The translations under genes and the position numbers were made by a program. From positions 12,686 through 76,685 of the forward strand of contig CAVTBM010000011.1 in NCBI GenBank assembly GCA_963732905.1: 64,000 bases of DNA, given 5' to 3'. The notes below the pieces were generated by a model, which saw only the letters and a program-made list of their open reading frames with translations, was not told where the DNA came from and ran no database searches. Numbering within the stretch: the first letter of the stretch is position 1; the number at the start of each line of letters is the position of its first letter. Of the stretch, positions 6,828 to 25,039 are shown in pieces. Origin of the DNA: an uncultured Bacteroidales bacterium (GTDB lineage: Bacteria > Bacteroidota > Bacteroidia > Bacteroidales > GCA-2748055).

Positions 6828-6854
6828 TTACCGTCAGTAGTTTCGTACCCAGGA

Positions 6855-7241
6855 GTGCGGGGTTTAGAAGCCAAGATAATAAAATATAAAAGATTTAAAA
6901 ATTTGAGGAACCAATTTGGCACCTTAAGTTGGGGTGGCGTTCGTTATGCCCCAATGGCTTTTACAGAACAGGGTGTAGCCATGCTATCAAGTGCTTTAAA
7001 CAGCCAAAGAGTCATCGCTGTAAACATCCAAATTATACGGATCTTCACTAAAATGCGGGAGTTGTTTTCTACTCATAAAGAAATCCTTCAAAAACTTAAA
7101 CAGCTGTAGAAAAAAGACATAGATCAGGATGAAAAGATCATATTGATTTTTGAATATCTAAAGCAACCGGAAAAAGCCAAACAGGAAGAACCGGACCAAA
7201 AAAATCGCACCTCCATAGGTTACAAGCAAAACAAAAAGTAA
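6855..7241 (+). pseudogene. ORF6N-domain gene fragment: 5'-truncated, with an in-frame TAG
   Basis: WGGVRYAPMAFTEQGVAMLSSALNSQRVIAVNIQIIRIFTKMRE matches the ORF6N core. The N-terminal ~60 aa are missing because the fragment abuts the GH30 start. After TAG at 7107-7109 the same frame continues (KKDIDQDEKIILIFEYLKQ...) to TAA 7239-7241. Confidence 0.65.
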
Positions 7242-7525
7242 TAGTCACCCCCTTCACCTTCCACATATCCGACCCTTCTGCCCCCGATCCCTATCAGGGT
7301 TAGCTTTGGATGTTGCTTAAGAGGTGAAAATGAGGTGGTGCGTTCAGATGATCCGGAGATGAGTTCCTGGATTTTTTCTTTTAACTAAACGGCTAAGCCC
7401 TCATAGCCTGCCCCATTTTAACGGGGAACACCCCTAAAAAATCAATGAAAAGATGAATAACTAATTAAAAACACACAAAAATCTTCAGTTAAAGAGCTCA
7501 ATTAAAAGTCTTCTTGCGATAAAGC

Positions 7526-7556
7526 TTTGGCAGATATTAAAAAAATGCTAATTTTA
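7526..7556 (+). promoter_or_regulatory. Promoter-like box TTTG-N19-TAATTTTA
   Basis: TTTG at 7526-7529 and TAATTTTA at 7549-7556, a 7/8 match to the Bacteroidota -7 consensus TAnnTTTG, with a 19-nt spacer. Identical in all three module copies. Confidence 0.35.
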
Positions 7557-7577
7557 ATCTACGATAGTGTTCGTCCC

Positions 7578-7610
7578 AAACCTGACAGGTTTTAAAAACC
7601 TGTCAGGTTT
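7578..7610. promoter_or_regulatory. Perfect 15-bp stem / 3-nt loop hairpin AAACCTGACAGGTTT-TAA-AAACCTGTCAGGTTT
   Basis: Arms 7578-7592 and 7596-7610 are exact reverse complements. The hairpin lies 21 nt after the -7-like box and 23 nt before ATG 7634. Confidence 0.85.
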
Positions 7611-7633
7611 AGGATGTACTGTTTGATGAAGGC

Positions 7634-8646
7634 ATGATCAACATGAAAAACCAAACGCCTGAATACGAGTATTTTTTAAGGTACCATCCCGGCAATACAC
7701 GTGTTGTATTGAATACAGAAGCACAATTTGTAGAACAACACGATTATTACCCGTTTGGTATGGAGTTCGCCGGACGACAGGGAGGGGATATCAAATACCG
7801 CTATGACGGTAAGGAGCTGCAGGATATGGAAATCGGGGGAAAAGGATTGGATTGGTACGATTACGGGGCACGATTTTATGATTCCCGCATGGGGAAGTGG
7901 AATTCTCAAGAACCTAAAGCCGAATGTTATTATCAACAATCTTTATATATTTATTCAGGGAATAATCCAATATTATTCCATGATTTTGATGGGAATGATT
8001 ACGGCGTTACCATTGATCAAGGGTCAAAAACCATTACCATCAGTGCAGTATATTTATCCGACAAAAAAGGCATGCCAACATTAAGATGATCAGTTAATGA
8101 AATTAATAATTTAAGTGGCAAATATGTTTTTGTGCCAGGTGGAAAAGCTGCAATCAAGACTGGGCAGACAAATGCATATTCTGTCAATTTTCAACTTACT
8201 ACCGACATAGCTGAAGAAAATGCAACTTTTACCGACCAAAATACTGGAGAAACAGTTACATATGGATCCCAAGCGGACAAAATAGCAACTGACGATAACT
8301 CCGGGGTAGTAAATAGCTATAATATCGTTGAGAATGACGATACACCTAAAGCTGGGGGAGCTGGATCAAATCAAATAGATGTTGAATTATCATCCTCAAA
8401 ATCAACTTCGTTTCTAAGCATGAAATTGGACATACTTTAGGAATGGGGCATAGTTCTGGTATTATGGCTCCAGTAGGAGCTGCTGGAAATTTTGATGCGG
8501 GACAAATTCAACAAACCTTGTCAGGTGTAAATATTGGTGGCAACAAACGAAGTGATCCAAATGCCCCTGGAATTGGTAAGATGCTCGGTGGTCAAACAAA
8601 TGAAGGACTTGAAAATGGTCGAGTAATGTCTACAAAAAGACGATGA
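7634..8646 (+). pseudogene. Orphan Rhs/YD C-terminal tip 1 with a metzincin-like metallopeptidase toxin domain (nonsense plus frameshift)
   Basis: RHS core end: EYEYFLRYHPGNTRVVLNTEAQFVEQHDYYPFGMEFAGRQGGDIKYRYDGKELQD...[13 protein letters not shown]. In-frame TGA at 8087-8089, after which the same frame continues to 8440. A frame switch near 8390-8415 leads into the 8389-8646 frame, which encodes HEIGHTLGMGH (8419-8451), an exact HExxHxxGxxH motif. Confidence 0.75.
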
Positions 8647-8675
8647 AAGATTAATGAGAAGATATAAACGGAAAA

Positions 8676-9187
8676 ATGAAAATTAATCATCTTAGAACAA
8701 TCTTAATGTCTGTATTATTAAGTACAGTTAACAATTTTACTTCAGGTCAAACAATATTTGTACCTGAACAAAATGCACTGTTTTTTTTATGGACTCTGTT
8801 TGTCCTGACTATATTAGTACCGATTCAAGAATTTTATTTAATGGAATCGTTAGTCCTAAGCTATCTTATTTTCCAAAACCTTATGGTTGTTTTAACGATA
8901 AAGCATTATTCATTGGATTATTAATAAATTCTCAAAAAAATGATTCATTGAACTATACTAAAAGTATTATCGAATTTCAAGATAAAAAATACTCTTTGTT
9001 AAAATATTCTAAAAAAAGTAATTTAAGAAGACGGCAGTTTGTTATGAAAATTTATCGATCTTCAAAATATAACGAAAATGAATATGTTTTAATTCGTCTT
9101 CAACGTATTGGAGAAACTCTTGATTTCTTTTTTGAACTGAATAAACATGGAAGAGTAATTAGATGGTGTCAAGGCGGCAAATTTTAA
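8676..9187 (+). pseudogene. Immunity-like secreted protein for tip 1, split at a T8 tract
   Basis: The signal-peptide-like start MKINHLRTILMSVLLSTVNNFTSGQ runs into T8 at 8781-8788. The remainder (MDSVCPDYISTD...GRVIRWCQGGKF) is in another frame. One extra T would fuse them into a single ~170-aa protein. Confidence 0.55.
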
Positions 9188-9293
9188 ATATTATTTTTTT
9201 TGTATGGAAATAGCCCTTTCCCAAGGTAGGATATTAAGTATCGTAATTTTGATAGAAAGTTATAAGATTATTTGCTTAATCGCTAAGCCAGGG

Positions 9294-9980
9294 GTGTATG
9301 ATTATGGGTTCCGGTTCTACGATCCTGCAATTGGTCGATTCCCGAGCCTGGATCCCAAAGGCAGATGAGTTTGAAAATCTTTCACCTTACAATTATGCTA
9401 GCAACAATCCCATTACCTGCATTGATTTATGGGGTTTGCAAGGCAAACCCGTAAATGAAATTCGAGATAAAAATGGGAATATTACGGCAGCGACAACTAC
9501 TGCGCAACAGACAACATATATCCCCCCTATTGTGGAATTTGATGTTCCTTTAAGTCAAAATTCTGGAGATAATTTCATTGATAAGGTTTCCGATAATTTA
9601 GGAAATTCATCATCTTTAGTTGAAGCCACTGGAATGATACTTGAAAATACTACCGTAACAAAAACTGGAGCAACTGCTGGAGCCGTAGTTGCTATTGTTA
9701 AAACTTCAGCTGATGCCGCTACAACAGATTTTAGTAATAGCGAAGAAACCGCTGATTTTTTTGAAAACACCACCCAAACTGCTGTTGAAACAGAGCCGGG
9801 CCATTGTGAGCAGCTGTAGATGTAATACTTGAAAATGGAAAAGATAAAAATGGATTGACAAATTTAGACATTGATAGAAAGGATGATGCCTATAGTACAA
9901 ATAAGGACCGACTGGATGCTTACAGTATAATTATGCAATACAACTCTTCAGGCGGATCAGATAAAGATAAGGAAAAATAA
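9294..9980 (+). pseudogene. Orphan Rhs tip fragment starting at (V)YDYGFRFYDP, frameshifted
   Basis: VYDYGFRFYDPAIGRFPSLDPK, then a 1-nt insertion relative to tip 3 (CCCAAAGGCAGAT vs CCAAAAGCAGAT), then ADEFENLSPYNYASNNPITCIDLWGLQGKPVNEIRDKNGNITAATT. TAG at 9817. A third frame is open from 9810 to the TAA at 9978-9980, which abuts the next ATG. Confidence 0.7.
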
Positions 9981-10355
9981 ATGAAAATCGTTGACGCTGT
10001 TTATTATCTCTATTACAGATATTATCGAATTATCAGGAGTATAAGCTTAAAAACCAGCTATTATCAGGTTCGTGTAGTCTTATTTTTCTCGATGATTACA
10101 GGATTTAACATTGTCTCAGTAATTAAGATTCTAGATTTAGAAATAGATTTTAATAGATATTATACTATAGCTATTGCATTAATGTGGTTCTTTTTTTGGT
10201 TACTCTTTTTTTCGAAGTCAACCCGTTTAGAAAGTATATTAAAACATTTTGAAAAAGAAAGTAAAACTCATCAATTGGTTGGCGGAATAGGGGTAATTTT
10301 ATATTCAATAGTTTCTTTTATTATATTTATTACTGTTTTAGGTAATCCATCTTGA
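9981..10355 (+). CDS. Immunity-like small membrane protein (about 3 TM helices)
   Basis: The ATG directly follows the tip stop codon (TAAATG). Hydrophobic segments: VVLFFSMITGFNIVSVI, IAIALMWFFFWLLFF, VGGIGVILYSIVSFIIFITVL. AT-rich. Confidence 0.6.
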   Translation: MKIVDAVYYLYYRYYRIIRSISLKTSYYQVRVVLFFSMITGFNIVSVIKILDLEIDFNRYYTIAIALMWFFFWLLFFSKSTRLESILKHFEKESKTHQLVGGIGVILYSIVSFIIFITVLGNPS

Positions 10356-10606
10356 ATTAAGGCAAAATCTTGATGATTTTGATATCCCGCAAGAAGCACG
10401 AAACTTTCTCACCGGATTGTCCAAAAAGGCCCCATCGGGGTCAGAGAGCGATAGAATAATTGACAGGTAAGGTTCCCCGGCGCCCCATAGGGTGTGCAAC
10501 CAATTTTGAAAAGAGAATAAAGGAAATCTAGATGAAATTCCATAATCTTTGAAAAGAGGGGGCTTGCTTTTAAATTGTATTTTAATACAGGAGAACAGGA
10601 TATGTA

Positions 10607-10946
10607 TTCGATTTTTTATTGTAAAAACCTGAAACCCTCACGCTGATTTTTTCCTCTTTTTCCCATTAATTGGTGAAGCATTCCCGGACAGTTACTTCGT
10701 GTAGTTGCTTTCTAAAGTTATAAAACATTGGTGCGAAAGATTGAAAGCACCCTGATTGTGCGGCGGATATCCAGGCCGGGTCGATTACTGATGGCTGAAG
10801 AATTACAATTCCGGCAGGTACAGTATATGGCAGGGCAAAAGTATGTGAGTTCGACTGAACGGTACCAGCTGAATAACCTGCGTAAATTGCAGAGCAAAAT
10901 AGATAAACCACATCCTTTAGGGAAAATTGAAGATCACAATTTGTGA
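10607..10946 (+). pseudogene. Tyrosine recombinase/integrase 3'-end remnant, copy 1
   Basis: Encodes ...LQFRQVQYMAGQKYVSSTERYQLNNLRKLQSKIDKPHPL, the catalytic-Tyr region of Bacteroidota-type integrases with His replaced by Gln. The frame is broken upstream at ACTGATGGCTGAAGAATTACAAT. Homologous to 16760-17081 and 19890-20222. Confidence 0.7.
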
Positions 10947-11016
10947 CCTCCAACCTGATTCGCAAAATGCGATACCAGGATTAAAAAGTTATTCTCTGTA
11001 ATAAGAATTAAAGAAA

Positions 11017-12051
11017 ATGAGAAAAGCAGTTACCCCTTCATTTGAAGACTTCTACAAAAGGATAAAAGAAATCCTGGAAACAACTCGTACCAGGATCTAC
11101 CAAACGGTAAATTTTGAAATGGTACAGGCCTATTGGAACATAGGCCGGATTGTTGTTGAAGAGGAGCAAAAGGGCAAAGAAAGAGCTGAATACGGCAGCT
11201 ATTTAATAGAAACTCTTTCAGAAAGGCTTACCAAGGAATATGGGAAAGGATTTACAAAGAGCAATTTAAAGTATATGCGACAGTTTTATCAGACTTTTGA
11301 AAAAAGTCACGCACTGCGTGGCGAATTATCCTGGACCCATTATCGCCTGTTGTTAAAAGTTGAAAATAAAAGTGCCCGTGAGTTCTATATCGAAGAAACC
11401 ATAAGGGGGAACTGGAGCACCAGGCAACTTGAACGGCAGATCAACTCTTTGTACTATGATCGCACATTAATGAGCCGGGATAAAAAGGGAATGATCATGG
11501 ATGGGCGGGCGTTGCAGGATAAAATGCAGCCGGAAGATATTATCAAGGACCCATATGTTTTAGAGTTCCTCGATGTAAGAGAAAATGAGAAACTCGCAGA
11601 ACGGGAGCTGGAGTTTGCTCTTATTGAAAAACTACAGCATTTATTACTTGAATTGGGTACTGGTTTTTCTTTTATCAGGCGTCAATACAGAATTACAGCA
11701 GATACAGATCATTTTTTTATTGACCTGGTTTTTTACAATTACATTTTAAAATTCTTTTTACTGATCGATCTTAAAATAGATAAGCTAAGTCACCAGGACA
11801 TAGGACAGATGGACTTTTATGTACGCTTCTTCGAGGAAAATGTAAAACAGCCCGGGGATAATCCAACAATAGGGCTTATTCTCTGTACCGAAAAGAATAA
11901 AACAATTGTTAAGTACAGTCTACTCAATGAAAGCAGGCAGATCTTTGCATCAAAGTATCAGATGTATTTACCAACGGAGAAACAGTTAAAAAAAGAGATC
12001 CAACGAGAGAAAGAACTGATTGAGCAGGAAAAAAAGCTCTCAAAAGAATAA
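11017..12051 (+). CDS. DUF1016/YhcG-family PDDEXK nuclease-like protein
   Basis: N-terminal YQTVNFEMVQAYWNIGRIVVEEEQKGKERAEYGSYLIETLSERLTKEYGKGF and C-terminal nuclease core ELGTGFSFIRRQYRI...FFIDLVFYN...LIDLK are characteristic of this family. Confidence 0.8.
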   Translation: MRKAVTPSFEDFYKRIKEILETTRTRIYQTVNFEMVQAYWNIGRIVVEEEQKGKERAEYGSYLIETLSERLTKEYGKGFTKSNLKYMRQFYQTFEKSHALRGELSWTHYRLLLKVENKSAREFYIEETIRGNWSTRQLERQINSLYYDRTLMSRDKKGMIMDGRALQDKMQPEDIIKDPYVLEFLDVRENEKLAERELEFALIEKLQHLLLELGTGFSFIRRQYRITADTDHFFIDLVFYNYILKFFLLIDLKIDKLSHQDIGQMDFYVRFFEENVKQPGDNPTIGLILCTEKNKTIVKYSLLNESRQIFASKYQMYLPTEKQLKKEIQREKELIEQEKKLSKE

Positions 12052-12134
12052 TTTTCATGTTGTATAAAAACTGCAACTACCGGTTATACAATTTAATTCA
12101 TTAACCAATCACCCTCCCCGCATCCAACCCTTCT

Positions 12135-12242
12135 GCAGCGGTTTTTTGTCATGATTTATCTGCTGGATTTTTTATGCAGGCAGTCCTTTTGCAGTTGCCG
12201 ATTGGGCCGCATATGGCAAAAGCCACGCCCGGAAAGTGCTGC
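12135..12242. repeat. Long imperfect palindrome (cassette-end element), copy with a 31-nt insertion
   Basis: GCAGCGGTTTTTTGTCATG...CCTTTTGCA / TGGCAAAAGCCACGCCCGGAAAGTGCTGC. The inner stem CTTTTGC/GCAAAAG and the outer GCAGC/GCTGC are complementary. Confidence 0.6.
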
Positions 12243-12413
12243 GCCTGATACTTAACAGGGTTGACTTTGGGGCTTACCTAAGTGATTAAAAATGCAGTGG
12301 TCTGTTCAAATAATCCGGGAACAGTCTGGATTTTTTTCTCTTAATTGAAGTAATTGAAAACACAGAAAAATCTTCAGTTAAGGGCTCAATTAAAAGTCTT
12401 CATGCGCTAGAGC

Positions 12414-12444
12414 TTTGGCAGATATTAAAAAAATGCTAATTTTA
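12414..12444 (+). promoter_or_regulatory. Promoter-like box TTTG-N19-TAATTTTA (copy 2)
   Basis: TTTG at 12414-12417 and TAATTTTA at 12437-12444. Confidence 0.35.
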
Positions 12445-12465
12445 ATCTACGATAGTGTTCGTCCC

Positions 12466-12498
12466 AAACCTGACAGGTTTTAAAAACCTGTCAGGTTT
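12466..12498. promoter_or_regulatory. Perfect 15-bp hairpin (copy 2)
   Basis: Same sequence as 7578-7610. Confidence 0.85.
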
Positions 12499-12594
12499 AC
12501 GATGTACTGTTTGATGAAGGCATGATCAACATGAAAAACCAAACGCCTGAATTCGAGTATTTCTTAAAGAGACCATCCCGGTAATACAGGTGTT

Positions 12595-13509
12595 GTGCTG
12601 AATACAGAAGCACAATTTGTAGAACAACATGATTATTACCCGTTCGGTATGGAGTTCGCCGGACGTCAGGGAGGGGATATCAAGTACCGCTATAACGGGA
12701 AAGAACTGCAGGATATGAAAATCGGGGGAAGAGGTTTGGATTGGTACGATTATGGGGCGAGGTTCTATGACCCGGCATTAGGTAGGTGGAATGTTCAAGA
12801 TCCCTTGGCGGAATATCACTTTAACCAATCTCCATATAACTACGTAGAAAATAATCCTTTGCTTTATATTGATCCCTTTGGACTAAATAAAGAAGATCGT
12901 CAAGAAAGAAGAAGACAGAGAAGAGCTAAAAGAAGGAATCAAAAAGTTCCAGAGGACCTAAGATATGATCTACCAGGAGTGGATTGTGTCGGCTCAGCTC
13001 CAAGTACTCCCAAACCCATTGATCCAAAAAATTTAGCTAACAAAGGTGGAACTGTACCTGGGGGCATCTTTCTCTGGAGTATTTTTGGTGAAGGTTCAGC
13101 TGGCATCGGAACTACCAACAAAGATGTCGAAAGCCTTAATCTTGATTGGTTGCTTATTTTGCTTATAGCTCAGCATGGGAGTATCCCCACTGAGAGAATT
13201 GAGGCAATAAATGAAGCAATTGCCAAGGCAAAAAATGCTATAGAGGAAGCTACAGTAACTTCGGATGAAGAGATTTATGAGAAGAATACAGGTAATTCTA
13301 AGGCTGCTAGTCCTCAAAAGAAGACAATTGTGAAAACATATTCAGAGAAATCAAATAAAGAAGTTGTTTCTAAGCGGGGATTTTATAATCGATTTAACAA
13401 GGATACAACCAAACTCTACGAGGTTCGTCCAAAATCAGGTGATACCATTTGGGTATGGCCGACCAATCCTGATGGGACTGTCAAAAATCCACCTGAACCA
13501 TATAAATAA
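12595..13509 (+). CDS. Orphan Rhs/YD C-terminal tip 2 (canonical PxxxxDPxGL, unknown toxin domain)
   Basis: YYPFGMEFAGRQGGDIKYRYNGKELQD...[27 protein letters not shown]...NNPLLYIDPFGL, then an Arg-rich linker RQERRRQRRAKRRNQK and ~190 aa with no motif I recognise. The module ATG at 12522 is out of frame because of a 1-nt insertion (AAAGAGACC vs AAAGGACC) and stops at 12582-12584. Confidence 0.75.
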   Translation: MLNTEAQFVEQHDYYPFGMEFAGRQGGDIKYRYNGKELQDMKIGGRGLDWYDYGARFYDPALGRWNVQDPLAEYHFNQSPYNYVENNPLLYIDPFGLNKEDRQERRRQRRAKRRNQKVPEDLRYDLPGVDCVGSAPSTPKPIDPKNLANKGGTVPGGIFLWSIFGEGSAGIGTTNKDVESLNLDWLLILLIAQHGSIPTERIEAINEAIAKAKNAIEEATVTSDEEIYEKNTGNSKAASPQKKTIVKTYSEKSNKEVVSKRGFYNRFNKDTTKLYEVRPKSGDTIWVWPTNPDGTVKNPPEPYK

Positions 13510-13516
13510 ATTGGTA

Positions 13517-14314
13517 ATGAAAAAAAATTCGTTAATTATTATATTTATTGTTATTGTAAGTAGTTGTCAATGTAATAAGAAAAAGGAATATTATTCTGAC
13601 GGATCGATTAAGATTGAGAAAATTTATTGTAAGAACAACGAACATATTAAAACGATCGAGCACTATCGAAATGGTCTCGTTTCATCGATTACATTTGAAA
13701 ATGTCAAAGGTAATTTAGATGGAAAATGTTCCTATTTTGATAAAAACGGTAATATCGAAAGTTCAGTTGTTTATAAAGATGGTATTTCAGATGGTATAGC
13801 AAAATGGTTTTATCCTAATGGCAAAATAATGGAAGAAGTGTATATAATAAATAAAGAAAGAGTTGGACCTCATATATATTATGATTTATCTGGAAATATA
13901 GTAAGAAAAAACTTTTATATTTTAATAAATAATAAATCATTCTTCAATGGGTATCTAGTTTATAATAAATTTGGAAATATTATTCCCGATTCGTCTATGT
14001 ATGTATTTTTAAAAACTGATAAGGACACAGTTAATATTAACGATACTATAACCTATTGGTTTAATCAATATCTATCAAAAGGGATTCAAGTTAAAGCCAT
14101 TATAGGTAATATTGATAAAAATTTCAATATCGTTGATTCAACCACAATTAAATATGTAAACCCAAATTTAAAAAACAAGTTTTCACCCACAAAAGTTGGA
14201 AATGATACAATTAGGATCATTTATGAATTGAAAAAAGAAACAGCAAATAATACTATTGATAAGATATATAAAGGCCGTATATTACTTGAAAAGATTTTAA
14301 ATGTTAGAGAGTAA
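13517..14314 (+). CDS. Immunity-like lipoprotein with MORN-variant (YwqK-like) repeats
   Basis: Lipobox MKKNSLIIIFIVIVSSC. Repeats YYSDGSIKIEKIY, YFDKNGNIESSVVYKDGISDGIAKWFYPNGKIMEEVY. The YwqK/COG2849 family is a known antitoxin/immunity family. The start is taken at ATG 13517, 8 nt after the tip stop. Confidence 0.65.
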   Translation: MKKNSLIIIFIVIVSSCQCNKKKEYYSDGSIKIEKIYCKNNEHIKTIEHYRNGLVSSITFENVKGNLDGKCSYFDKNGNIESSVVYKDGISDGIAKWFYPNGKIMEEVYIINKERVGPHIYYDLSGNIVRKNFYILINNKSFFNGYLVYNKFGNIIPDSSMYVFLKTDKDTVNINDTITYWFNQYLSKGIQVKAIIGNIDKNFNIVDSTTIKYVNPNLKNKFSPTKVGNDTIRIIYELKKETANNTIDKIYKGRILLEKILNVRE

Positions 14315-14829
14315 ACTGGTATGATTACGGGGCAAGGTTTTATGATCCGGCGATTGCAAGGTGGAATAAAAAAAGACAACAAGACATAAATGATGAATTG
14401 CGACTTCTTTCAATGGTACATAATAAAATAGTTAATAATAATACAGGGAATAATAATGATAAATATCCTGGATGGTCTGGATTAATAGGAATTTCGCTAG
14501 GCAGTCTCGATTTGTGGAATAATATGAAGGATAATTTATTGGCATCAAAATCAATCATAGAAAATCAAATTGAGGAGATTAATGAAAGATTAAAGAACAA
14601 GAATGCATCTTCTTCAGAGGTTGATAAATTACAAAACAATTTGAATGATTTGGTTAAGAAACAAGCTCAAATTGATTCGGTTATTGAAGCTGTCATAAGA
14701 GTTATTGATAATTCTAAAAAATATCAAGAACAATTAACTTCTCCAAGAGATGTCACAAGAACTAGTTCTTCTGGTGAAAATGATTATAAAAAAAGTCTTG
14801 ATATCGTTAAGAAATGGGGAAATGAATAA
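14308..14829 (+). pseudogene. Orphan Rhs tip fragment starting at [11 protein letters not shown], with no start codon of its own
   Basis: The frame opens at 14308, overlapping the stop of the preceding gene: (RVN)[31 protein letters not shown].... It then has an Asn-rich and coiled-coil-like tail (NQIEEINERLKNKNASSSEVDKLQNNLNDLVKKQAQ). The first ATG is at 14398. Confidence 0.65.
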
Positions 14830-14852
14830 AATTGAATTAATTATAGTTAGTT

Positions 14853-15245
14853 ATGAAGCAAGACTATGACGATATTCAGAATATTCTAACGGATTATTAC
14901 TTAAATGATGATTACATTAGTGTAATAAATACATGGGAATCTAAGATAAATTATAAATTATTACCTAAATTCGATAATAAATTACGAAATGAAGTACTTC
15001 ATGCGTTAATTATAAGTTATAAAAAAACCGAGAATATTAAACAGAGCATTTTTTATATAAATAAATATATTAATAAATTGTTAAATAATCATCAAAATGA
15101 AAACTTTGATGAAGAATTGCTTTTCTGTTTTACAGTTCTCGCATCAATATATGCATCTAAACAAAATTATCTAAAAGAATTAAAAACGCTATATAAATAT
15201 AATAAATTTAATAACAAAAATAAAAAAAACAAAAAACCTAATTGA
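14853..15245 (+). CDS. Immunity-like small cytoplasmic protein (helical, Lys/Asn-rich tail)
   Basis: 130-aa ORF 23 nt after the tip stop. Very AT-rich. No recognisable motif. Confidence 0.45.
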   Translation: MKQDYDDIQNILTDYYLNDDYISVINTWESKINYKLLPKFDNKLRNEVLHALIISYKKTENIKQSIFYINKYINKLLNNHQNENFDEELLFCFTVLASIYASKQNYLKELKTLYKYNKFNNKNKKNKKPN

Positions 15246-15261
15246 TGATTTAGAAGTACAT

Positions 15262-15492
15262 TTGTTTAATAAATTTCAGATGATGAACAAATTTTATTCT
15301 TACATATTTATTTCTTTGATAATTTTACATTTGATAATTGAAAATTTTTTTTCAATATCAATTAGTAATAAATTCTTTCTTGTGTTGTGGACAGCTTTTA
15401 TTATATTTTCTATGATATGGATTGTAATCACATTGCTAAATAAAAAACTTGCCTTAAAATTTTTTAGATTTCTTATCAGTGTTGTCCAGTAA
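15262..15492 (+). CDS. Small 2-TM membrane protein (possible second immunity gene)
   Basis: YSYIFISLIILHLIIENFF and FLVLWTAFIIFSMIWIVITLL are hydrophobic helices. The start is uncertain (listed TTG at 15262, ATG at 15280). Confidence 0.4.
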   Translation: MFNKFQMMNKFYSYIFISLIILHLIIENFFSISISNKFFLVLWTAFIIFSMIWIVITLLNKKLALKFFRFLISVVQ

Positions 15493-15605
15493 AACCGGAA
15501 GTTACTAATATTTTACAATCAAATGCCTGAAAATCAATCATACATTTTTCATTTTTCAAAAGCAAGCCCACCTCATTTCCGGGAATAAGGAATTTTCATA
15601 CTCAT

Positions 15606-15701
15606 TCGCTCGTTGTTTGTAAGCCTTCGGCTAACTGCATCTTGAAATAATACCTTCTACCAGTTAGCTTTGTTGCAAAGCAAGCCTTCGGCTAACGAGC
15701 G
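15606..15701 (+). other. Intergenic element: 15-bp direct repeat AAGCCTTCGGCTAAC x2 enclosed by an 8-bp stem
   Basis: Direct repeats at 15621-15635 and 15682-15696. CGCTCGTT (15607-15614) pairs with AACGAGCG (15694-15701). GCTAACTG (15630-15637) pairs with CAGTTAGC (15661-15668). Confidence 0.3.
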
Positions 15702-15868
15702 CCTTTGGTTTCATAGCGTAATGGATCCCTCAAAGAGAATAGCCAGTTCAGACTTTGGTTATTCTTACTCCCTCAATGTCAAGATGTTTTAGCTCCACGA
15801 TTATTGAGTGAAACAAATTTATTTCTAAAGATTTATCTTTACATTTGTAAAACAATGCTTGGAAGATC

Positions 15869-16096
15869 ATGAGGACAATACTGATAAAAATACCCGATAG
15901 TGTTGATATGTCAGACTATGACTTTTCAATGATGATTGCTGCAAAGCTTTATGAAGATAGAAAACTGTCTTCCGGTCAAGCTGCCGAAATGGTTGGTTTA
16001 ACCAAAAGAGCTTTCATAGAAATTCTCGGAAAATACGGAGTTTCGTTGTTCAGCAATTCAATTGATGATCTTCATTCAGATATAGCAAATGCCTAA
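15869..16096 (+). CDS. UPF0175-family antitoxin
   Basis: LSSGQAAEMVGLTKRAFIEILGKYGVSLF is the typical UPF0175 core. There is an 8-nt overlap with the downstream PIN-like gene. A perfect TAnnTTTG box (TACATTTG) sits at 15840-15847. Confidence 0.75.
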   Translation: MRTILIKIPDSVDMSDYDFSMMIAAKLYEDRKLSSGQAAEMVGLTKRAFIEILGKYGVSLFSNSIDDLHSDIANA

Positions 16097-16559
16097 GGTC
16101 ATTATTTCCGATACCAGTGTTCTGAATCTATTTCAAAAAATCAGCAGACTCGACCTGCTTCACGGAATTTATGAAGAGATCATTACAACGCCTGAAGTCG
16201 CAGAGGAATATGGGGACGAGTTACCTATATGGATAAATATTCAAGTAGTTACCGACAGAAAATATCAGGAACTATTGGAATTACAGGTTGACAAAGGTGA
16301 AGCCAGTGCCATCGCACTGGCTAAAGAATATTCAGATGTATTATTATTGCTCTATGATTTAAAGGCCAGGAAATTAGCTACTAAATTGAATTTGAAATAT
16401 ACCGGGACACTTGGTATTATAACGAAGGCAAAGAATAAAGGCTTAATTGAAAAGGTTAAACCTGTCCTGGATAAAATTCAAAAGACAGATTTCAGGATAT
16501 CAGAAAAGATACTTAAAGAGATTCTTTTACTGAATGACGAAGACGTGCAAGAGAGATAA
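16089..16559 (+). CDS. DUF3368-type PIN-like nuclease toxin
   Basis: VIISDTSVLNLF...GEASAIALAKEY...LLLLYDLKARKLATKLNLKYTGTLGIITKAKNKGLI matches the DUF3368 pattern. Note LLYD where LLDD would be typical. Confidence 0.7.
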   Translation: MPKVIISDTSVLNLFQKISRLDLLHGIYEEIITTPEVAEEYGDELPIWINIQVVTDRKYQELLELQVDKGEASAIALAKEYSDVLLLLYDLKARKLATKLNLKYTGTLGIITKAKNKGLIEKVKPVLDKIQKTDFRISEKILKEILLLNDEDVQER

Positions 16560-16622
16560 ATCACATTTGAGCAAGTTATACCTAGGATTGGTATCTGAAT
16601 TTCATCAAGTCTCAAAAAAAAT

Positions 16623-17081
16623 CATTGGTATGATTACGGGGCACGGTTCTATGAACCCCGGCTGGGTAGGTGGCATGTGATTGTTCCGGCCACTGAGGCC
16701 AATCACTTTGAATGGTAACGTTCATATGCCGGGCCTTAAACACATGAGCTCATCACACAAATTCGATTTTTTATTGTAAAAAACCTGAAATCCTCACGCT
16801 GATTTTTTCCTCTTTTTCCCATTAATTGGTGAAGCATTCCCGGACAGTTACTTCGTGTAGTTGCTTTCTGAAATTATAATAAACTGGTGCGAAATCTAGA
16901 ATGCAACCAGATTATGCGGCGGATATCCGGGCCGGGTCGATTTTTGATGGCCGAAGAATTACAATTCCGGAAGGTGCAGTATATGGCAGGTCATAAGTAC
17001 GTGAGTTCTACGGAACGGTAACAGCTGAATAACCTGGATAAGTTGCAGGAACGGATAAACAAATATCACCCGCTGAGTTAA
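16623..17081 (+). pseudogene. Rhs junction stub plus tyrosine recombinase 3' remnant, copy 2
   Basis: [31 protein letters not shown] (16623-16718), then ...KVQYMAGHKYVSSTER*QLNNLDKLQERINKYHPLS*. The catalytic Tyr codon is TAA. Near-identical to 19751-20222. Confidence 0.75.
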
Positions 17082-17131
17082 ACTAAAAGTGAATTTTAAT
17101 CGTTAAATTTGTGTACATAATGAGAGTAAAT

Positions 17132-17368
17132 ATGAATCTTCAGTCCAAAAAATTAGAGCTGGTTCAGCTTATACTGAATACTAAAAAACCCTCTATCCTT
17201 GCCAGGGTTGAAGCTGTACTAAAAGGGAAAGCTGTCGATTGGTGGGATGAGATAAGCCCGGAGGAACGGGAAGCCATAGAAAAGGGCTTATCAGAGGCAG
17301 ATAAAGGAGAGCTTATACCTCATGAAGAAGTCATGAAAGAAGTAAGGGCAAAATATAAGCTCGACTAA
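17132..17368 (+). CDS. Antitoxin partner of the RelE/ParE-family toxin
   Basis: Small acidic protein (WWDEISPEEREAIEKGLSEADKGELIPHEEVMKEV). TAATG overlap with the toxin gene. The start could also be 17111 or 17120. Confidence 0.6.
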   Translation: MNLQSKKLELVQLILNTKKPSILARVEAVLKGKAVDWWDEISPEEREAIEKGLSEADKGELIPHEEVMKEVRAKYKLD

Positions 17369-17664
17369 TGAAGATTAGTTGGACTCCCACAGCAAGAAGG
17401 ACTTATTTTAAAGTTCTCGATTATTTAGCGGAGAACTGGACCAAAAGAGAAGTTGCCCATTTTATAAGCGAAGTTGAAAGCTTATTGAATCAGATCACCA
17501 ACAATCCTGAAATGTTCCAGGCCTCCAGAAAAAAGAAAAGCGTCAGAAAGGCTCTAATCACGAAACACAACGCGCTTTATTACAGGATAAAACCCAGAAA
17601 AAAAGAACTAGAGCTAATCACCTTCTGGGATAATCGCCAAAACCCCAATAAATTAACTTATTAG
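17368..17664 (+). CDS. RelE/ParE-family type II toxin
   Basis: 98 aa. WTPTARRTYFKVLDYL...ALYYRIKPRKKELELITFWDNRQNP is a typical ParE/RelE fold signature. Confidence 0.7.
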   Translation: MKISWTPTARRTYFKVLDYLAENWTKREVAHFISEVESLLNQITNNPEMFQASRKKKSVRKALITKHNALYYRIKPRKKELELITFWDNRQNPNKLTY

Positions 17665-17694
17665 TTATCCACCCTCCCCGCCTCCAACCCTTCT

Positions 17695-17770
17695 GCAGCT
17701 GTTTTTGTCATGCCTTTTGCCGTTGCCGATTGCACCGCGTATGGCAAAAGCCACGCCAAAAAACTGCTGC
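17695..17770. repeat. Long imperfect palindrome (cassette-end element)
   Basis: GCAGCTGTTTTTGTCATGCCTTTTGCC (17695-17721) against GGCAAAAGCCACGCCAAAAAACTGCTGC (17743-17770). About 80% complementary, with a 21-nt loop. Confidence 0.7.
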
Positions 17771-17997
17771 CCCAGGCAACGGTACATAATGTGTCGGTAT
17801 TTGAAACCCTCCACCAGAAACGGGATCTTCCTTCCAACCGGAATTTTTTCTTTTAACTGAACGGCGAAGCCCTCATAGCATACACTGTTTTGACTTGTAG
17901 CACCTCTAAAAAATCAATTAATAGGTAAATAACAAACTGAAAACTCGGAAAAATCTTCAGCTAAAGGGCTCAATTAAAAGTCTTCGTTTGCTAAAGC

Positions 17998-18028
17998 TTT
18001 GGCAGATATTAAAAAAATGCTAATTTTA
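17998..18028 (+). promoter_or_regulatory. Promoter-like box TTTG-N19-TAATTTTA (copy 3)
   Basis: TTTG at 17998-18001 and TAATTTTA at 18021-18028. Confidence 0.35.
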
Positions 18029-18047
18029 ATCTACGATCGTTCGTCCC

Positions 18048-18080
18048 AAACCTGACAGGTTTTAAAAACCTGTCAGGTTT
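18048..18080. promoter_or_regulatory. Perfect 15-bp hairpin (copy 3)
   Basis: Same sequence as 7578-7610. Confidence 0.85.
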
Positions 18081-18103
18081 ACGATGTACTGTTTGATGGA
18101 GGC

Positions 18104-19003
18104 ATGATCAACATGAAAAACCAAACGCCTGAATACGAGTATTTCTTAAAGGACCATCCCGGTAATACACGTGTTGTGCTGAATACAGAAGCACAATTTG
18201 TAGAACAACACGATTATTACCCGTTTGGTATGGAGTTCGCCGGACGACAGGGTGGAGATATCAAGTATCGGTATAACGGAAAGGAAATGCAGGATATGAA
18301 AATCGGGGGGAGAGGGTTGGATTGGTACGATTACGGATTTAGATTTTACGACCCGGCTTTAGGTCGGTTCCCAAGCCTGGATCCAAAAGCAGATGAGTTT
18401 GAAAATCTCTCTCCATACAACTATGCCAGTAACAATCCGGTAACATGTATTGATCTATGGGGAATACAAGGCCGGCCAGTAAATAAAGTTCGAGATCAGA
18501 AGGGAAATATTACAGCTGCTACAACCAGTGCTCAACAGTCAACGTATATTTCTACAATGGAGCCAAAAACTATTAGTAATAACTCAATTGAATTTAAACC
18601 GACAAATGAGTCTATATATCAGAGTGCAAATTGGTGGGAACTTACAACTGCTCCAGATATACAAGAATGGTTAAAAGTTGACAAAGTTCCATCGGCTGTA
18701 GCTGTAGGAGGACTTATAACTGTTCTAAGCGCAGCTGTTCCAGAAGTCATTTCAGGTATAACAGATTTCGGTTCTAATGTCACTTTAAATATTTCTACAT
18801 CAATTGAATCTTCAACAACAATTGCAGTCGGAACTGGTGTGGTAGTGGGTGCTGCTAAAACATTAACTGATGCCCCACCTGATACGCCTGAAATACCTAA
18901 CCCGGTAATAGAGGTTTCTTCAGAAATGACTGAATATATTATTCAATCTACACACGAGTTTATGAAAAATATTCAAAATTCAAATGATAAAAAGTCTAAA
19001 TAG
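18104..19003 (+). CDS. Orphan Rhs/YD C-terminal tip 3 (intact ORF) with a Gly/Ala/Val-rich hydrophobic C-terminal domain
   Basis: MINMKNQTPEYEYFLKDHPGNTRVVLN...YYPFGMEF...GLDWYDYGFRFYDPALGRFPSLDPKADEFENLSPYNYASNNPVTCIDLWGIQG. The tail contains VPSAVAVGGLITVLSAAVPEVISG and TTIAVGTGVVVGAAKTL. Confidence 0.8.
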   Translation: MINMKNQTPEYEYFLKDHPGNTRVVLNTEAQFVEQHDYYPFGMEFAGRQGGDIKYRYNGKEMQDMKIGGRGLDWYDYGFRFYDPALGRFPSLDPKADEFENLSPYNYASNNPVTCIDLWGIQGRPVNKVRDQKGNITAATTSAQQSTYISTMEPKTISNNSIEFKPTNESIYQSANWWELTTAPDIQEWLKVDKVPSAVAVGGLITVLSAAVPEVISGITDFGSNVTLNISTSIESSTTIAVGTGVVVGAAKTLTDAPPDTPEIPNPVIEVSSEMTEYIIQSTHEFMKNIQNSNDKKSK

Positions 19004-19047
19004 AGTTAGAAATAAATTTGTATTTTTAATTCATCAACTCATAATTT

Positions 19048-19269
19048 ATGTGTTTTTTGGATAAAAAAAGGCTTAAATATATCTATTTTTATTTTATGAT
19101 TCTTTGTTTTCAAATTATATTGGTGAGAATATTTGGTGAACCTGATTTATTAAAAACACCAAGCTCATCACAAACTTGGGGAGAAAGTATTAATGATTTT
19201 CCAATATATATGATAACATCGTTATTCTTAACGTTAATATTCTATTTTTTTGATCGCTTCTCTAAATAA
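19048..19269 (+). CDS. Immunity-like 2-TM membrane protein
   Basis: YIYFYFMILCFQIILVRIF and FPIYMITSLFLTLIFYFF helices. AT-rich. 44 nt after the tip 3 stop. Confidence 0.5.
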   Translation: MCFLDKKRLKYIYFYFMILCFQIILVRIFGEPDLLKTPSSSQTWGESINDFPIYMITSLFLTLIFYFFDRFSK

Positions 19270-19284
19270 TAATTACAATGCAAT

Positions 19285-19728
19285 ATGACAAACTTTAGGA
19301 ATATTCGAAATTTAAATATTGTATTTTCATTTATTCTTATAGTTATGTATTTTCGTTCATTACGATATTTAATAATGATTATAACTCATTATAATGTATT
19401 TTTTAAGAGAAGTTACTTTCAAATATTGTTCCTTTCACCTAGATTAGTTGTGTTTATTAATACTTTTAATATAATTATTGGAGTATGTATATTAATAAAT
19501 GCTTTTGCTCTATTAAATAAAATGCAAAAAAGTATAATATTTATTAAAATATTACTTCCAATAAGTGCTATACTAAATTTACCATTTTTCTATAAAAATA
19601 TAATAGACTATGAGGATAATTTACATAAATATGTTAGCCTTGGAATTACAATGTTGATTTATATAATTTATTTAACCACATATCTTTTTTACAATAGTCG
19701 TAAAATCAAGCTTTTATTTACGAATTAA
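19285..19728 (+). CDS. Immunity-like polytopic membrane protein (about 4 TM)
   Basis: Four hydrophobic segments, e.g. NIVFSFILIVMYF, VVFINTFNIIIGVCILINAFALL, VSLGITMLIYIIYLTTYLF. AT-rich. Confidence 0.5.
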   Translation: MTNFRNIRNLNIVFSFILIVMYFRSLRYLIMIITHYNVFFKRSYFQILFLSPRLVVFINTFNIIIGVCILINAFALLNKMQKSIIFIKILLPISAILNLPFFYKNIIDYEDNLHKYVSLGITMLIYIIYLTTYLFYNSRKIKLLFTN

Positions 19729-19750
19729 CATATAATACAAAAAGGATGTA

Positions 19751-20222
19751 AACTGGTACGATTACGGGGCACGGTTCTATGATCCACGCCTAGGTAGGTG
19801 GCATGTTATTGTTCCGGCCACTGAGGCCAATCACTTTGAATGATATCGTTCATATGCCAGGCCTTAAACACATGAGCTCATCACAAAAATTCGATTCTAT
19901 ATTGTAAAAACCTGAATTCCTCACGCTGATTTTTTGCTCTTTTTCCCATTAATTGGTGAAGCATTCCCGGACAGTTACTTCGTAGTTGCTTTCTAAAGTT
20001 ATAATAAACTAGTGCGAAATCTTGAATGCACCCTGATTGTGCGGCAGATATCCGGGCCGGGTCGATTACTGATAGCCGAAGAATTACAATCTCCGGCAGG
20101 TTCAATATATGGGAGGGCATAAGTATGTGAGTTCTACGGAGCGGTATCAGCTCAATAACCTGGGTAAGGTACAGAGCAAATTGGAGAAATATCATCCATT
20201 GTCACATAATAGTCGCAAATAA
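19751..20222 (+). pseudogene. Rhs junction stub plus tyrosine recombinase 3' remnant, copy 3
   Basis: [30 protein letters not shown] (to 19843), then ...KNYNLRQVQYMGGHKYVSSTERYQLNNLGKVQSKLEKYHPLSHNSRK* ending at TAA 20220-20222. The frame is closed upstream by TAG in ACTGATAGCCGAAG. Confidence 0.75.
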
Positions 20223-20262
20223 GTTACCCTAATTGGTAACTTTGAATTAAATTTGTACTTGT

Positions 20263-20574
20263 ATGAGAATAATAAAAGAGAAAACTCTCATTGAATATTG
20301 CCGGAAGAGTAAATACAAGAAGGCGGAGGAATCCTTGAAATCCTGGGTTTATGAGGTAAAATACTCTACCTGGAATAATGTGAATCAGCTGAAACTGAAA
20401 TATAGAAATGCCAGCGTAATAAGTTCAAAAAGAGTAGTTTTCAATATCAAAGGCAATGATTACAGGTTAATCGTAGATATCGAATACAAACTAAAAATAA
20501 TTTTCATTGTCTGGTTTGGGACACATGAGGAATATGTTAGGATAGATGCAAAAACAATAAGATATGAATATTAA
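20263..20574 (+). CDS. higB: HigB-family type II toxin (mRNA interferase)
   Basis: 103 aa. LKSWVYEVKYSTWNNVNQLKLKYRNASVISSKRVVFNIKGNDYRLIVDIEY...FIVWFGTHEEY is the HigB_toxin pattern. Confidence 0.8.
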   Translation: MRIIKEKTLIEYCRKSKYKKAEESLKSWVYEVKYSTWNNVNQLKLKYRNASVISSKRVVFNIKGNDYRLIVDIEYKLKIIFIVWFGTHEEYVRIDAKTIRYEY

Positions 20575-21001: not shown

Positions 21002-21062
21002 AAAGATCTAGGGCCACAATGATTTAAAAATCCACCACTACCCCACTCCCAATCCTTCTGAA

Positions 21063-21133
21063 GCAGTATTTTGGTGTGGCTTTTGCTATGCTCGACGCCA
21101 TCTGCAACTGTAATAGCCACACCAAAATACTGC
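21063..21133. repeat. Cassette-end palindrome, perfect 19-bp arms (fourth, partial module 21031-21140)
   Basis: GCAGTATTTTGGTGTGGCT (21063-21081) is the exact reverse complement of AGCCACACCAAAATACTGC (21115-21133). It is preceded by the leader variant TCCACCACTACCCCACTCCCAATCCTTCTGAA. Confidence 0.85.
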
Positions 21134-21198
21134 ATCACCAGTCTATGTTAACATAATATAAACAGCTGTAATCCTAAAAAGCTTATCTTTGTGTTACT

Positions 21199-25000: not shown

Positions 25001-25039
25001 AAGACAGGAAAGAAGGAAACCGGAAAACCGAACGTAGAT

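What the first reader, a model, noticed from the sequence alone, without database searches (positions are those of the whole stretch)
7245..18360. Self-contained restart modules: promoter-like box, perfect hairpin and ATG placed in front of each RHS core end
Each long tip (7634, 12522/12595, 18104) is preceded by the same non-coding block.
- TTTG-N19-TAATTTTA, a 7/8 match to the Bacteroidota -33/-7 consensus TTTG...TAnnTTTG.
- 21 nt later, a perfect 15-bp stem with a 3-nt loop (AAACCTGACAGGTTT-TAA-AAACCTGTCAGGTTT).
- 23 nt after that, ATGATCAACATG.

In-frame stops (a TGA inside the hairpin, and an additional TAG in copy 1) show the ORF cannot extend further upstream. These are therefore not simply 3' ends cut out of a longer gene. 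They look built to express a short core-end-plus-toxin protein, or at least the downstream immunity gene, on their own.

The hairpin would lie in the 5' UTR, where it could act as a regulator, an RNA-stability element or a protein/recombinase binding site. Alternatively it could terminate read-through from the upstream cargo.
Basis: partly seen in the sequence, partly recalled or inferred. Interest (0 to 1): 0.6.

Follow-up and report, generated by a model that had tools for sequence, protein, structure and literature searches.

The report
Shared leader on orphan rhs tips
Three leftover toxin-gene ends in a Bacteroidota genome island share one slowly evolving non-coding leader (a promoter-like box plus a hairpin from a widespread mobile repeat family), which probably keeps the toxin tip and immunity genes transcribed: a variation on known orphan toxin arrays.

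Summary
The exact 33-nt hairpin, the TTTG-N19-TAATTTTA box and ATGATCAACATG occur three times, each in front of an rhs core end.

- The ATG is not a purpose-built start. It is the conserved internal Met of the rhs core ('EGM-I/V-D'). Coding homology runs 18 nt upstream of it and stops 6 nt from the hairpin foot. All copies therefore descend from one truncation of a longer gene.
- The hairpin is not rhs-specific. Its core occurs in at least 120 genome loci from several phyla, mostly just after stop codons. In four loci it brackets REP-associated tyrosine-transposase-like genes, so it is a REP/REPIN-type element.
- In the window only one of three tip ORFs is intact.

The leader nevertheless looks functional. 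It varies as little as codon positions 1 and 2, about four times less than third positions (p = 7e-6). A close relative (L203) carries the same leader and head joined to a different, intact tip.

Best reading: headless orphan rhs-CT/immunity cassettes in a low-GC, co-oriented island. A conserved leader plus truncated core end serves as transcription platform and recombination acceptor. Promoter activity is inferred, not shown. This is a new variant of a known kind, of moderate interest.

The parts
6850..21990 (+). Low-GC island. All genes are co-oriented. It holds orphan rhs tips, immunity-like genes, toxin-antitoxin pairs and recombinase remnants. It lies between a GH30-like gene (4347-6827, minus strand) and an SDR-like gene (22015-22872, minus strand).
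   Evidence: GC is 26-41% inside the island and 44-50% in the flanks. ORFs are listed.
7366..7633 (+). Leader block, copy 1. The conserved core is 7477-7633.
   Evidence: Repeat families D2, D7 and D11. Alignments A1 and A4. There are 0-4 differences per 30 nt.
7526..7556 (+). Promoter-like box, copy 1 (TTTG-N19-TAATTTTA).
   Evidence: The sequence is identical in all 4 copies. Function was not tested.
7578..7610 (+). REP/REPIN-type hairpin, copy 1 (15-bp stem, 3-nt loop).
   Evidence: Family membership is shown.
7611..7633 (+). Junction and remnant of rhs coding sequence upstream of the ATG ('(Y/*)DVLFDEG').
   Evidence: tblastn with P0002 and P0003 starts at 7616.
7634..8089 (+). Head 1 (rhs core end, complete TIGR03696 domain) plus tip 1. 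It is interrupted by an in-frame TGA at 8087, and the reading continues to about 8440.
   Evidence: NCBIfam TIGR03696, E = 3.8e-11.
9297..9819 (+). Displaced short tip. It starts at 'YDYGFRFYDP', is frameshifted, and is related to the tip 3 domain.
   Evidence: Repeat D10.
10581..10946 (+). Remnant of the 3' end of a tyrosine recombinase gene (about 70 codons), copy 1.
   Evidence: Repeats D3-D6. Alignment A3. Translation. 109 short XerD-annotated homologues.
11017..12051 (+). Cargo gene: YhcG/DUF1016 PD-(D/E)XK nuclease family.
   Evidence: Pfam PF06250 and PF17761.
12090..12521 (+). Leader block, copy 2. Box at 12414-12444, hairpin at 12466-12498.
12522..13509 (+). Head 2 plus tip 2. A +1 frameshift near 12570 stops the ATG frame at 12583, and the ORF resumes at GTG 12595.
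   Evidence: TIGR03696, E = 7.9e-16.
13364..14314 (+). MORN-repeat protein downstream of tip 2. It is a candidate immunity gene.
   Evidence: Pfam MORN_2. The immunity role is inferred from position.
14311..14829 (+). Displaced short tip. Only '[12 protein letters not shown]' of the core end remains.
   Evidence: Repeat D8. tblastn.
16624..17074 (+). Short tip remnant fused to recombinase 3' remnant, copy 2.
   Evidence: Repeats D8 and D9..
17111..17664 (+). Cargo: ParE-family toxin with an upstream small antitoxin-like ORF.
   Evidence: Pfam ParE_toxin.
17650..18103 (+). Leader block, copy 3. Box at 17998-18028, hairpin at 18048-18080.
18104..19003 (+). Head 3 plus tip 3, an intact 299-aa ORF starting at the shared ATG.
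   Evidence: TIGR03696, E = 1.4e-15.
19048..19728 (+). Two small hydrophobic ORFs downstream of tip 3. They are candidate immunity genes.
   Evidence: The role is inferred from position.
19748..20200 (+). Short tip remnant fused to recombinase 3' remnant, copy 3.
20263..21725 (+). Cargo: HigB/HTH antitoxin pair and MntA/HepT pair.
   Evidence: Pfam and NCBIfam hits.

Best explanation
Each module is the head of a 'headless' orphan rhs cassette.

**Origin (shown).** One ancestral event joined a non-coding leader to the last ~120 codons of an rhs core. The leader holds a Bacteroidota-type -33/-7 promoter-like box followed by a REP/REPIN-type hairpin. The retained core piece is the complete RHS-associated core domain. 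The join lies within 6 nt of the hairpin foot. An internal Met codon of the core, 18 nt further on, became the first in-frame ATG.

**Spread (shown).**
- The leader-plus-head unit was multiplied in a low-GC, co-oriented island. Its copies exchange sequence with one another, because the L203 copy is a mosaic of the window copies.
- The toxin tip and immunity genes behind the head are swapped by recombination in the core end. A close relative has a different tip behind the same head.
- Older tips are pushed downstream as short remnants.

**Function (inferred).**
- The leader supplies transcription for the tip-immunity operon without a full-length rhs gene.
- This keeps immunity genes expressed, and possibly a shell-less toxin that acts like a toxin-antitoxin pair.
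- The hairpin then lies in the 5' UTR, where it could modulate transcript stability or read-through.
For: - **Presence.** There are three exact hairpins and identical boxes.
- **Junction.** The junction and the internal Met are mapped by homologues.
- **Domain.** The complete TIGR03696 domain is present in each head.
- **Substitution pattern.** Differences between copies in the core end are mostly synonymous, 18 synonymous to 4 non-synonymous between copies 2 and 3.
- **Leader constraint.** Leader variability is 8.9% of columns, and 4.6% from the box to the ATG. Third positions are at 33% and positions 1+2 at 7.9%; Fisher p = 7e-6.
- **Relative L203.** It is 96% identical from window 10606 to 12803, then diverges into a different, intact 337-aa tip that starts at the same ATG. 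Its module is a mosaic of window copies 1-3.
- **Island character.** The island is low in GC and co-oriented.
- **Independent parallel.** A separate gut-metagenome family of orphan rhs modules has its own conserved leader with a perfect TTTG-N19-TATATTTG and a fixed ATG.
- **Precedent.** Transcription starts inside main and orphan rhs genes that express the CT and immunity are shown experimentally in Salmonella (PMC7043789).
Against: - No transcription data exist, so promoter activity is inferred from a 7/8 consensus match in AT-rich DNA.
- Two of the three window modules have broken toxin ORFs. The short protein itself is therefore not strictly maintained.
- Only 4 non-independent copies from 2 genomes underlie the constraint test. 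Gene conversion focused on the leader, or import of coding differences with swapped tips, could mimic constraint.
- A strong hairpin between promoter and ORF could reduce expression rather than help it.
- Of 56 orphan core ends in metagenome loci, only one family (12 modules) has a strict consensus promoter upstream. A promoter is therefore not a general orphan feature.
Confidence: 0.55

Rival explanations
1. The modules are pure relics. One truncated rhs fragment was duplicated with its flanking DNA. The leader has no function, and its conservation reflects recent duplication or gene conversion.
For: - All copies share one junction.
- Two of three tips are disrupted.
- The mosaic pattern shows ongoing gene conversion.
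- The island is full of other decayed tips.
Against: - The leader is about 4 times less variable than adjacent third codon positions within the same ~400 nt. Uniform conversion would not produce that.
- The same leader and head persist in a second genome with a different, intact tip.
Confidence: 0.22
2. The hairpin does what REP elements usually do. It ends or stabilises the transcript of the upstream cargo genes and insulates cassettes from each other. The promoter-like box is then coincidental.
For: - In 130 occurrences elsewhere the hairpin sits mostly 2-30 nt after stop codons. Contexts were +hp+ 33, +hp- 31, -hp- 17 and divergent only 9.
- REPs are described as affecting termination and mRNA stability (PMC3733652 abstract).
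Against: - In the window the nearest upstream stop codon is 330-415 nt away.
- There is no T-run after the stem, and the terminator scan does not call it.
- The box is placed upstream of the hairpin, so a terminator would also stop transcripts from the box.
- This rival does not explain the constraint on the rest of the leader.
Confidence: 0.13
3. The hairpin or leader is a recombination site. A Y1 transposase (RAYT) or the tyrosine recombinase whose 3' remnants recur in the island would cut there to capture or move cassettes, as in an integron.
For: - The rhs fragment is joined within 6 nt of the hairpin foot.
- The hairpin family is linked to RAYT-like genes.
- Three recombinase 3' remnants sit at equivalent places in the array.
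- Arrays in the window and in L203 share constant parts but differ in cassettes.
Against: - There is no RAYT and no intact recombinase in the 64-kb window.
- The observed exchange point between the window and L203 is at the end of the core end (about 12803), not at the hairpin.
- L204 has the same island type without any hairpin.
- Homologous recombination in the core end is enough to explain tip swapping.
Confidence: 0.1

Closest known systems
Orphan rhs-CT/rhsI modules and C-terminal displacement in Enterobacteria (Poole et al. 2011, PMC3150448; Salmonella orphan with internal promoters, PMC7043789)
   Same: - A core-end fragment plus a variable toxin tip plus immunity, without the shell.
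- Tips are exchanged by recombination in the conserved core end.
- Older tips accumulate downstream.
- In Salmonella, the CT and immunity are transcribed from starts of their own.
   Different: - No full-length rhs lies within 64 kb.
- Three heads share one truncation junction and a non-coding leader outside the coding sequence. In Salmonella the promoters lie inside the conserved coding region, 89 nt before the PxxxxDPxGL-coding sequence.
- A REP-type hairpin sits between the box and the ATG.
rAID-1, recombinase-associated acquired interbacterial defence clusters of Bacteroidales (Ross et al., bioRxiv 10.1101/471110)
   Same: - A low-GC, co-oriented array of orphan immunity-type genes with repetitive intergenic sequences.
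- A link to a XerD-like tyrosine recombinase.
- Bacteroidota hosts.
   Different: - Only ~70-codon 3' remnants of a recombinase are present here, in three copies inside the array. There is no intact gene at the 5' end.
- Identity to the rAID-1 recombinase was not tested.
- The array also carries rhs core ends and toxin-antitoxin cargo, and the repeats are different.
REP/REPIN elements with RAYT transposases (PMC3116915, PMC3337134, PMC5581495)
   Same: - A short palindromic hairpin, present in several copies per genome and mostly extragenic.
- It flanks single RAYT-like genes.
- Single 15-mers and inverted doublets both occur.
   Different: - The same 27-33 nt sequence is found in several phyla, whereas REPIN-RAYT systems are described as lineage-specific and vertically inherited (abstracts).
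- No GTAG or CGTC tag was seen at the foot.
- In this window it occurs only inside the three duplicated leaders.
Bacteroidota housekeeping promoter consensus (-33 TTTG / -7 TAnnTTTG; from my own knowledge of Bayley et al. 2000, not retrieved here)
   Same: TTTG, a 19-nt spacer, then TAATTTT: 7 of 8 specified bases at the canonical spacing.
   Different: The last base is A, not G. No transcription start has been mapped.

Membership tests
Orphan rhs-CT/immunity module | Carries the 3' end of the rhs core (RHS-associated core domain) followed by a variable C-terminal domain | tested here: met
   TIGR03696 hits above the cut-off in all three heads. The tips differ after the core end.
Orphan rhs-CT/immunity module | Lacks the N-terminal delivery/shell part and is truncated relative to full-length homologues | tested here: met
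   An in-frame stop lies 19 codons before the ATG. Homology to longer homologues starts at 7616 and 18086.
Orphan rhs-CT/immunity module | Lies downstream of a full-length rhs gene | tested here: not met
   All core-end hits lie in the island and none follows a long ORF. No RHS domains occur in the large ORFs of the window. The rest of the genome could not be read.
Orphan rhs-CT/immunity module | A cognate immunity gene follows the tip and neutralises the toxin | not testable with these tools
   Small co-oriented ORFs follow each tip. Their function is unknown.
REP/REPIN element | Short palindrome able to form a stable hairpin | tested here: met
   Perfect 15-bp stem, z = -7.
REP/REPIN element | Many copies per genome, mostly extragenic | tested here: inconclusive
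   Met in other genomes, for example 5-6 loci each in several Beggiatoaceae MAGs, with most copies intergenic. In the source lineage only the leader copies were seen, in 64 kb plus 9 kb.
REP/REPIN element | Flanks a RAYT (REP-associated tyrosine transposase) gene | tested here: met
   9 of 120 loci carry a RAYT-like gene, bracketed by hairpins in L004, L066, L075 and L110. NF047646 gives E = 1e-14 to 4e-16 but scores below the 80-bit cut-off. No RAYT is in the window.
rAID-1 cluster | Intact 5' XerD-like recombinase with more than 44% identity to BF9343_RS08045 | tested here: not met
   Only 3' remnants with stops are present. Identity to the reference protein was not tested.
rAID-1 cluster | Two or more co-oriented downstream genes with GC of 41% or less, and repetitive intergenic sequences | tested here: met
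Bacteroidota -33/-7 promoter | TTTG and TAnnTTTG about 19 nt apart | tested here: inconclusive
   7/8 match at N19, identical in 4 copies. The last base differs from the consensus.
Bacteroidota -33/-7 promoter | A transcription start a few bases downstream of the -7 box | not testable with these tools
   No transcript data are available.
Intrinsic terminator | GC-rich stem followed by a T-run | tested here: not met
   The scan of 7200-7700 does not call the hairpin. Only the TTT that belongs to the stem follows it.
Integron attC site | Imperfect hairpin with extrahelical bases, next to an IntI integrase | tested here: not met
   The stem is perfect, and no intact integrase is in the window.
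Known RNA family (Rfam) | Match at the gathering score | tested here: not met
   No hit in the whole window. Only sub-threshold hairpin noise appears in 7200-7700.

The most novel reading that the evidence does not exclude
The island may be a recombinase-linked 'tip integron' for rhs toxins.

- A conserved leader (promoter plus REP hairpin) fused to a truncated core end would act as a fixed expression and capture platform.
- Incoming tip-immunity cassettes would recombine into this platform, so a cell could express a library of immunity genes without owning a full-length rhs gene. It might also express shell-less toxins that behave as addiction modules.
- The recurring recombinase 3' fragments and the hairpin would mark the cassette junctions.
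- The tRNA-Lys-linked tandem modules in gut metagenomes would be an independent second example of the same design.
Probability: 0.2. Interest if true: 0.7.

Novelty: new variant of a known kind. Interest (0 to 1): 0.42.

Why it matters
Orphan toxin tips are usually treated as silent spare parts that need a full-length gene to be used.

If this leader is an active promoter, Bacteroidota would maintain free-standing, transcribed tip-immunity units that swap cargo by recombination. That would explain how immunity to neighbours' Rhs toxins is kept without the weapon itself. It would also link rhs orphan arrays to the acquired interbacterial defence arrays described in gut Bacteroidales.

The finding also shows a REP-type mobile hairpin built into such a leader. 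The same hairpin occurs across phyla, which is unexpected for REPIN-RAYT systems.

Tried and rejected
- **Rfam.** There is no family at gathering score in the window. An E-value scan of the leader gave only sub-threshold miRNA-type hairpin matches.
- **Literature search by hairpin sequence.** It returned only unrelated primer hits.
- **RHS next to the hairpin elsewhere.** None of the 120 genome loci with the hairpin has a core end. The rest of the leader matches nothing in 200 loci, so similarity is confined to the 33 nt.
- **Close relatives in the metagenome scan by protein.** The best was 64% identity, so no ancestral full-length gene was recovered.
- **Leader as decayed rhs coding sequence.** Rejected. 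There is no homology upstream of the hairpin, and the sequence is AT-rich with stops in all frames.
- **Conserved upstream small ORF.** The ORF from ATG 7546 to TAA 7594 is rejected, because the 2-nt deletion in copy 3 and L203 changes its frame.
- **Operator for an MqsA-like antitoxin.** The ACCT-N3-AGGT resemblance was only a recalled lead. No such gene was identified among the window proteins scanned, and the RAYT link explains the element better. This was not tested further.
- **Sigma-70 promoter scan.** Not informative for Bacteroidota.
- **Organism name.** It could not be obtained.
- **Genome-wide questions.** The source genome's full-length rhs genes, RAYT gene and REP copy number therefore could not be examined.

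Full report
**1.

The 33-nt hairpin sequence occurs exactly three times, at 7578-7610, 12466-12498 and 18048-18080, with none expected by chance. The three copies align over about 130-270 nt of non-coding DNA plus about 280 nt of coding DNA.

The box TTTG-N19-TAATTTTA is identical in all copies. The hairpin starts 21 nt later, or 19 nt later in copy 3. ATGATCAACATG follows 23 nt after the hairpin. The in-frame TGA inside the hairpin and the extra TAG in copy 1 are both real. As RNA, the region folds far better than shuffled controls (z = -7).

**2. The ATG is an old internal codon, and the junction sits at the hairpin foot**

Related proteins read '...GIDYVLTSEGMVDKNTSSIEYHYFLKDHLGN' and '...KLDYVLNPEGMIDINGSTSEYQYYLRDHLGN'. 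The window, read in frame from just after the hairpin, gives 'YDVLFDEGMINMKNQTPEYEYFLKDHPGN'.

tblastn places the start of homology at 7616 and 18086. That is 18 nt before the ATG and 6 nt after the hairpin. Nothing upstream of the hairpin resembles rhs.

The modules are therefore 3' ends of a longer gene. All copies share a single breakpoint, and the 'start codon' is the conserved Met of the core. Each head still contains the complete RHS-associated core domain (TIGR03696).

**3. The hairpin is a REP/REPIN-type element and is not rhs-specific**

- **Distribution.** They come from Flavobacteriales, Bacteroidales, Saprospiraceae, Anaerolineae/Caldilineae, Beggiatoaceae, Rhodothermales, Balneolaceae and others. 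Several genomes hold several copies.
- **Variation.** The loop varies. The outer stem varies with matching changes on both sides (AGA..TCT, AAA..TTT, ACA..TGT, ATA..TAT). The flanks are unrelated.
- **Context.** Most copies lie just after stop codons. None lies near an rhs core end.
- **Link to a transposase.** The largest family of neighbouring genes is a Y1/HUH protein. It matches NCBIfam 'REP-associated tyrosine transposase' at E = 1e-14 to 4e-16, below the family cut-off. Nine of the 120 loci carry it, and in four the gene is bracketed by hairpins.
- **Basic unit.** Single 15-mers occur in tandem arrays in L011, L027 and L062.
- **In this window.** There is no such transposase gene, and the only full hairpin copies are the three in the leaders.

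**4. The leader looks constrained**

| Region (4 copies: 3 window + L203) | Variable columns |
|---|---|
| Leader | 14 of 158 |
| Box to ATG | 5 of 108 |
| Third codon positions of the core end | 27 of 82 |
| Codon positions 1+2 | 13 of 164 |

The leader differs from third positions with Fisher p = 7e-6. Differences in the core end are mostly synonymous.

This fits a functional leader. The copies are few and related, however, and they exchange sequence with each other. The test is therefore suggestive rather than decisive.

**5. Context**

The modules lie in a 15-kb island of 26-41% GC, within DNA of 44-50% GC. All island genes are on the plus strand. Besides the three heads, the island holds:

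- four shorter displaced tips, at 9297, 14311, 16624 and 19748;
- immunity-like ORFs;
- toxin-antitoxin pairs and a YhcG nuclease;
- three copies of the last ~70 codons of a tyrosine recombinase gene.

The array reads as three units. Each unit runs: leader, head, tip(s) with immunity, short tip remnant, recombinase remnant, cargo.

No full-length rhs gene is in the window. Tip 1 has an internal stop and head 2 a frameshift. Only tip 3 is intact.

**6. A relative shows tip exchange behind a fixed head**

Contig L203 is from an ENA metagenome assembly. It is 96% identical to window 10606-12803, which covers the recombinase remnant, YhcG, the leader, the hairpin, the ATG and the core end. After that point it diverges into a different, intact 337-aa tip that starts at the same ATG, followed by a different downstream gene. 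Its leader and head are a mosaic of window copies 1, 2 and 3.

Another Bacteroidales genome (L204) has the same island type without the hairpin.

**7. Other orphan core ends**

Among 56 orphan-type core ends in metagenome loci, truncation points vary, and most have no consensus promoter upstream.

One independent family stands out. Its modules sit in tandem next to tRNA-Lys, each preceded by a repeat of the tRNA 3' end. They share their own leader with a perfect TTTG-N19-TATATTTG and a fixed ATG. This is a second case of a leader-plus-head design.

**8. Mechanism**

*Shown:*
- a single ancestral fusion of a REP-ended leader to an rhs core end;
- multiplication of this unit and exchange of sequence between its copies;
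- tip exchange at the core end.

*Inferred:*
- the leader drives transcription of the tip-immunity operon;
- the hairpin lies in the 5' UTR.

The Salmonella work, in which CT and immunity are expressed from starts inside main and orphan rhs genes, is the nearest experimental precedent.

The rivals are pure relic, REP acting as a terminator or insulator, and recombination site. Each is weighed in the rival section of this report. None is excluded, and the terminator and promoter readings could both hold in part.

**9. Placement**

The modules work like orphan rhs-CT/immunity cassettes and resemble rAID-1 arrays in layout. They fail one defining feature of each class: there is no upstream full-length rhs and no intact recombinase.

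I rate this a new variant of a known kind, of moderate interest. The cross-phylum REP family and the widespread ~70-aa recombinase fragments are side observations worth separate follow-up.

Noticed in passing
L001-L120 (genome loci), e.g. L004 767/1450, L066 4929/5526, L075 4915/5670, L110 788/1180/1490: The same 27-33 nt REP-type hairpin occurs in Bacteroidota, Chloroflexota, Beggiatoaceae, Rhodothermales and Balneolaceae. It brackets RAYT-like genes. REPIN-RAYT systems are described as lineage-specific and vertically inherited, so this cross-phylum identity is unusual.
   Followed up: partly
L003, L067, L075, L110 (RAYT-like ORFs): In several RAYT-like genes the 33-nt hairpin lies inside the ORF, in frame (translated 'LTGFQNLSGL'), in a variable loop that the L004 protein lacks. 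This looks like a REP inserted into its own transposase gene.
   Followed up: partly
L148, L150, L162, L164, L166, L167, L174, L180 (metagenome loci; e.g. L164 5511-10611): Tandem orphan rhs modules sit next to tRNA-Lys. Each is preceded by a repeat of the tRNA 3' end and a hairpin, then a conserved leader with a perfect TTTG-N19-TATATTTG, then an ORF starting 'MGSIVPPQSTNVALTLKTDYCGNMIYENG'. The layout suggests site-specific tandem integration.
   Followed up: partly
window 10581-10946, 16737-17074, 19864-20200; P0023-P0131: The recombinase 3' remnant has 109 database relatives, all short (44-141 aa, many 69-72 aa). They come from Marinilabilia, Saccharicrinis, Salinivirga and Bacteroidales MAGs. 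A recurring truncated form suggests it is part of a repeated junction rather than random decay.
   Followed up: partly
window 12110-12136 and 17670-17696: The motif CACCCTCCCCGCNTCCAACCCTTCTGC follows the stop codon of two different cargo genes, 59 nt after YhcG and 6 nt after ParE. A weaker version is at 7253-7281. It may be a cassette boundary.
   Followed up: partly
window 24832-24988 and 25037-25223: There are about 19 tandem copies of the 8-nt unit GAGGTTAT directly after a GH2-family gene. They are followed by three ~61-nt repeats spaced 59-67 nt apart (GACGTGATGCTTCACGTCTCTTCGGAAAAAC...).
   Followed up: no
window 6855-7240: A truncated ORF6N-domain gene fragment marks the left edge of the island.
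   Followed up: no
window 35747-38326 (-) and 47115-50306 (-): Two large ORFs (859 and 1063 aa) have no Pfam match at E <= 1e-5.
   Followed up: no
L209 12951-13079 (viral contig IMGVR_UViG_3300032401_000165): Three copies of the hairpin lie 51 nt apart on a predicted viral contig. Six viral contigs carry the hairpin in all.
   Followed up: no
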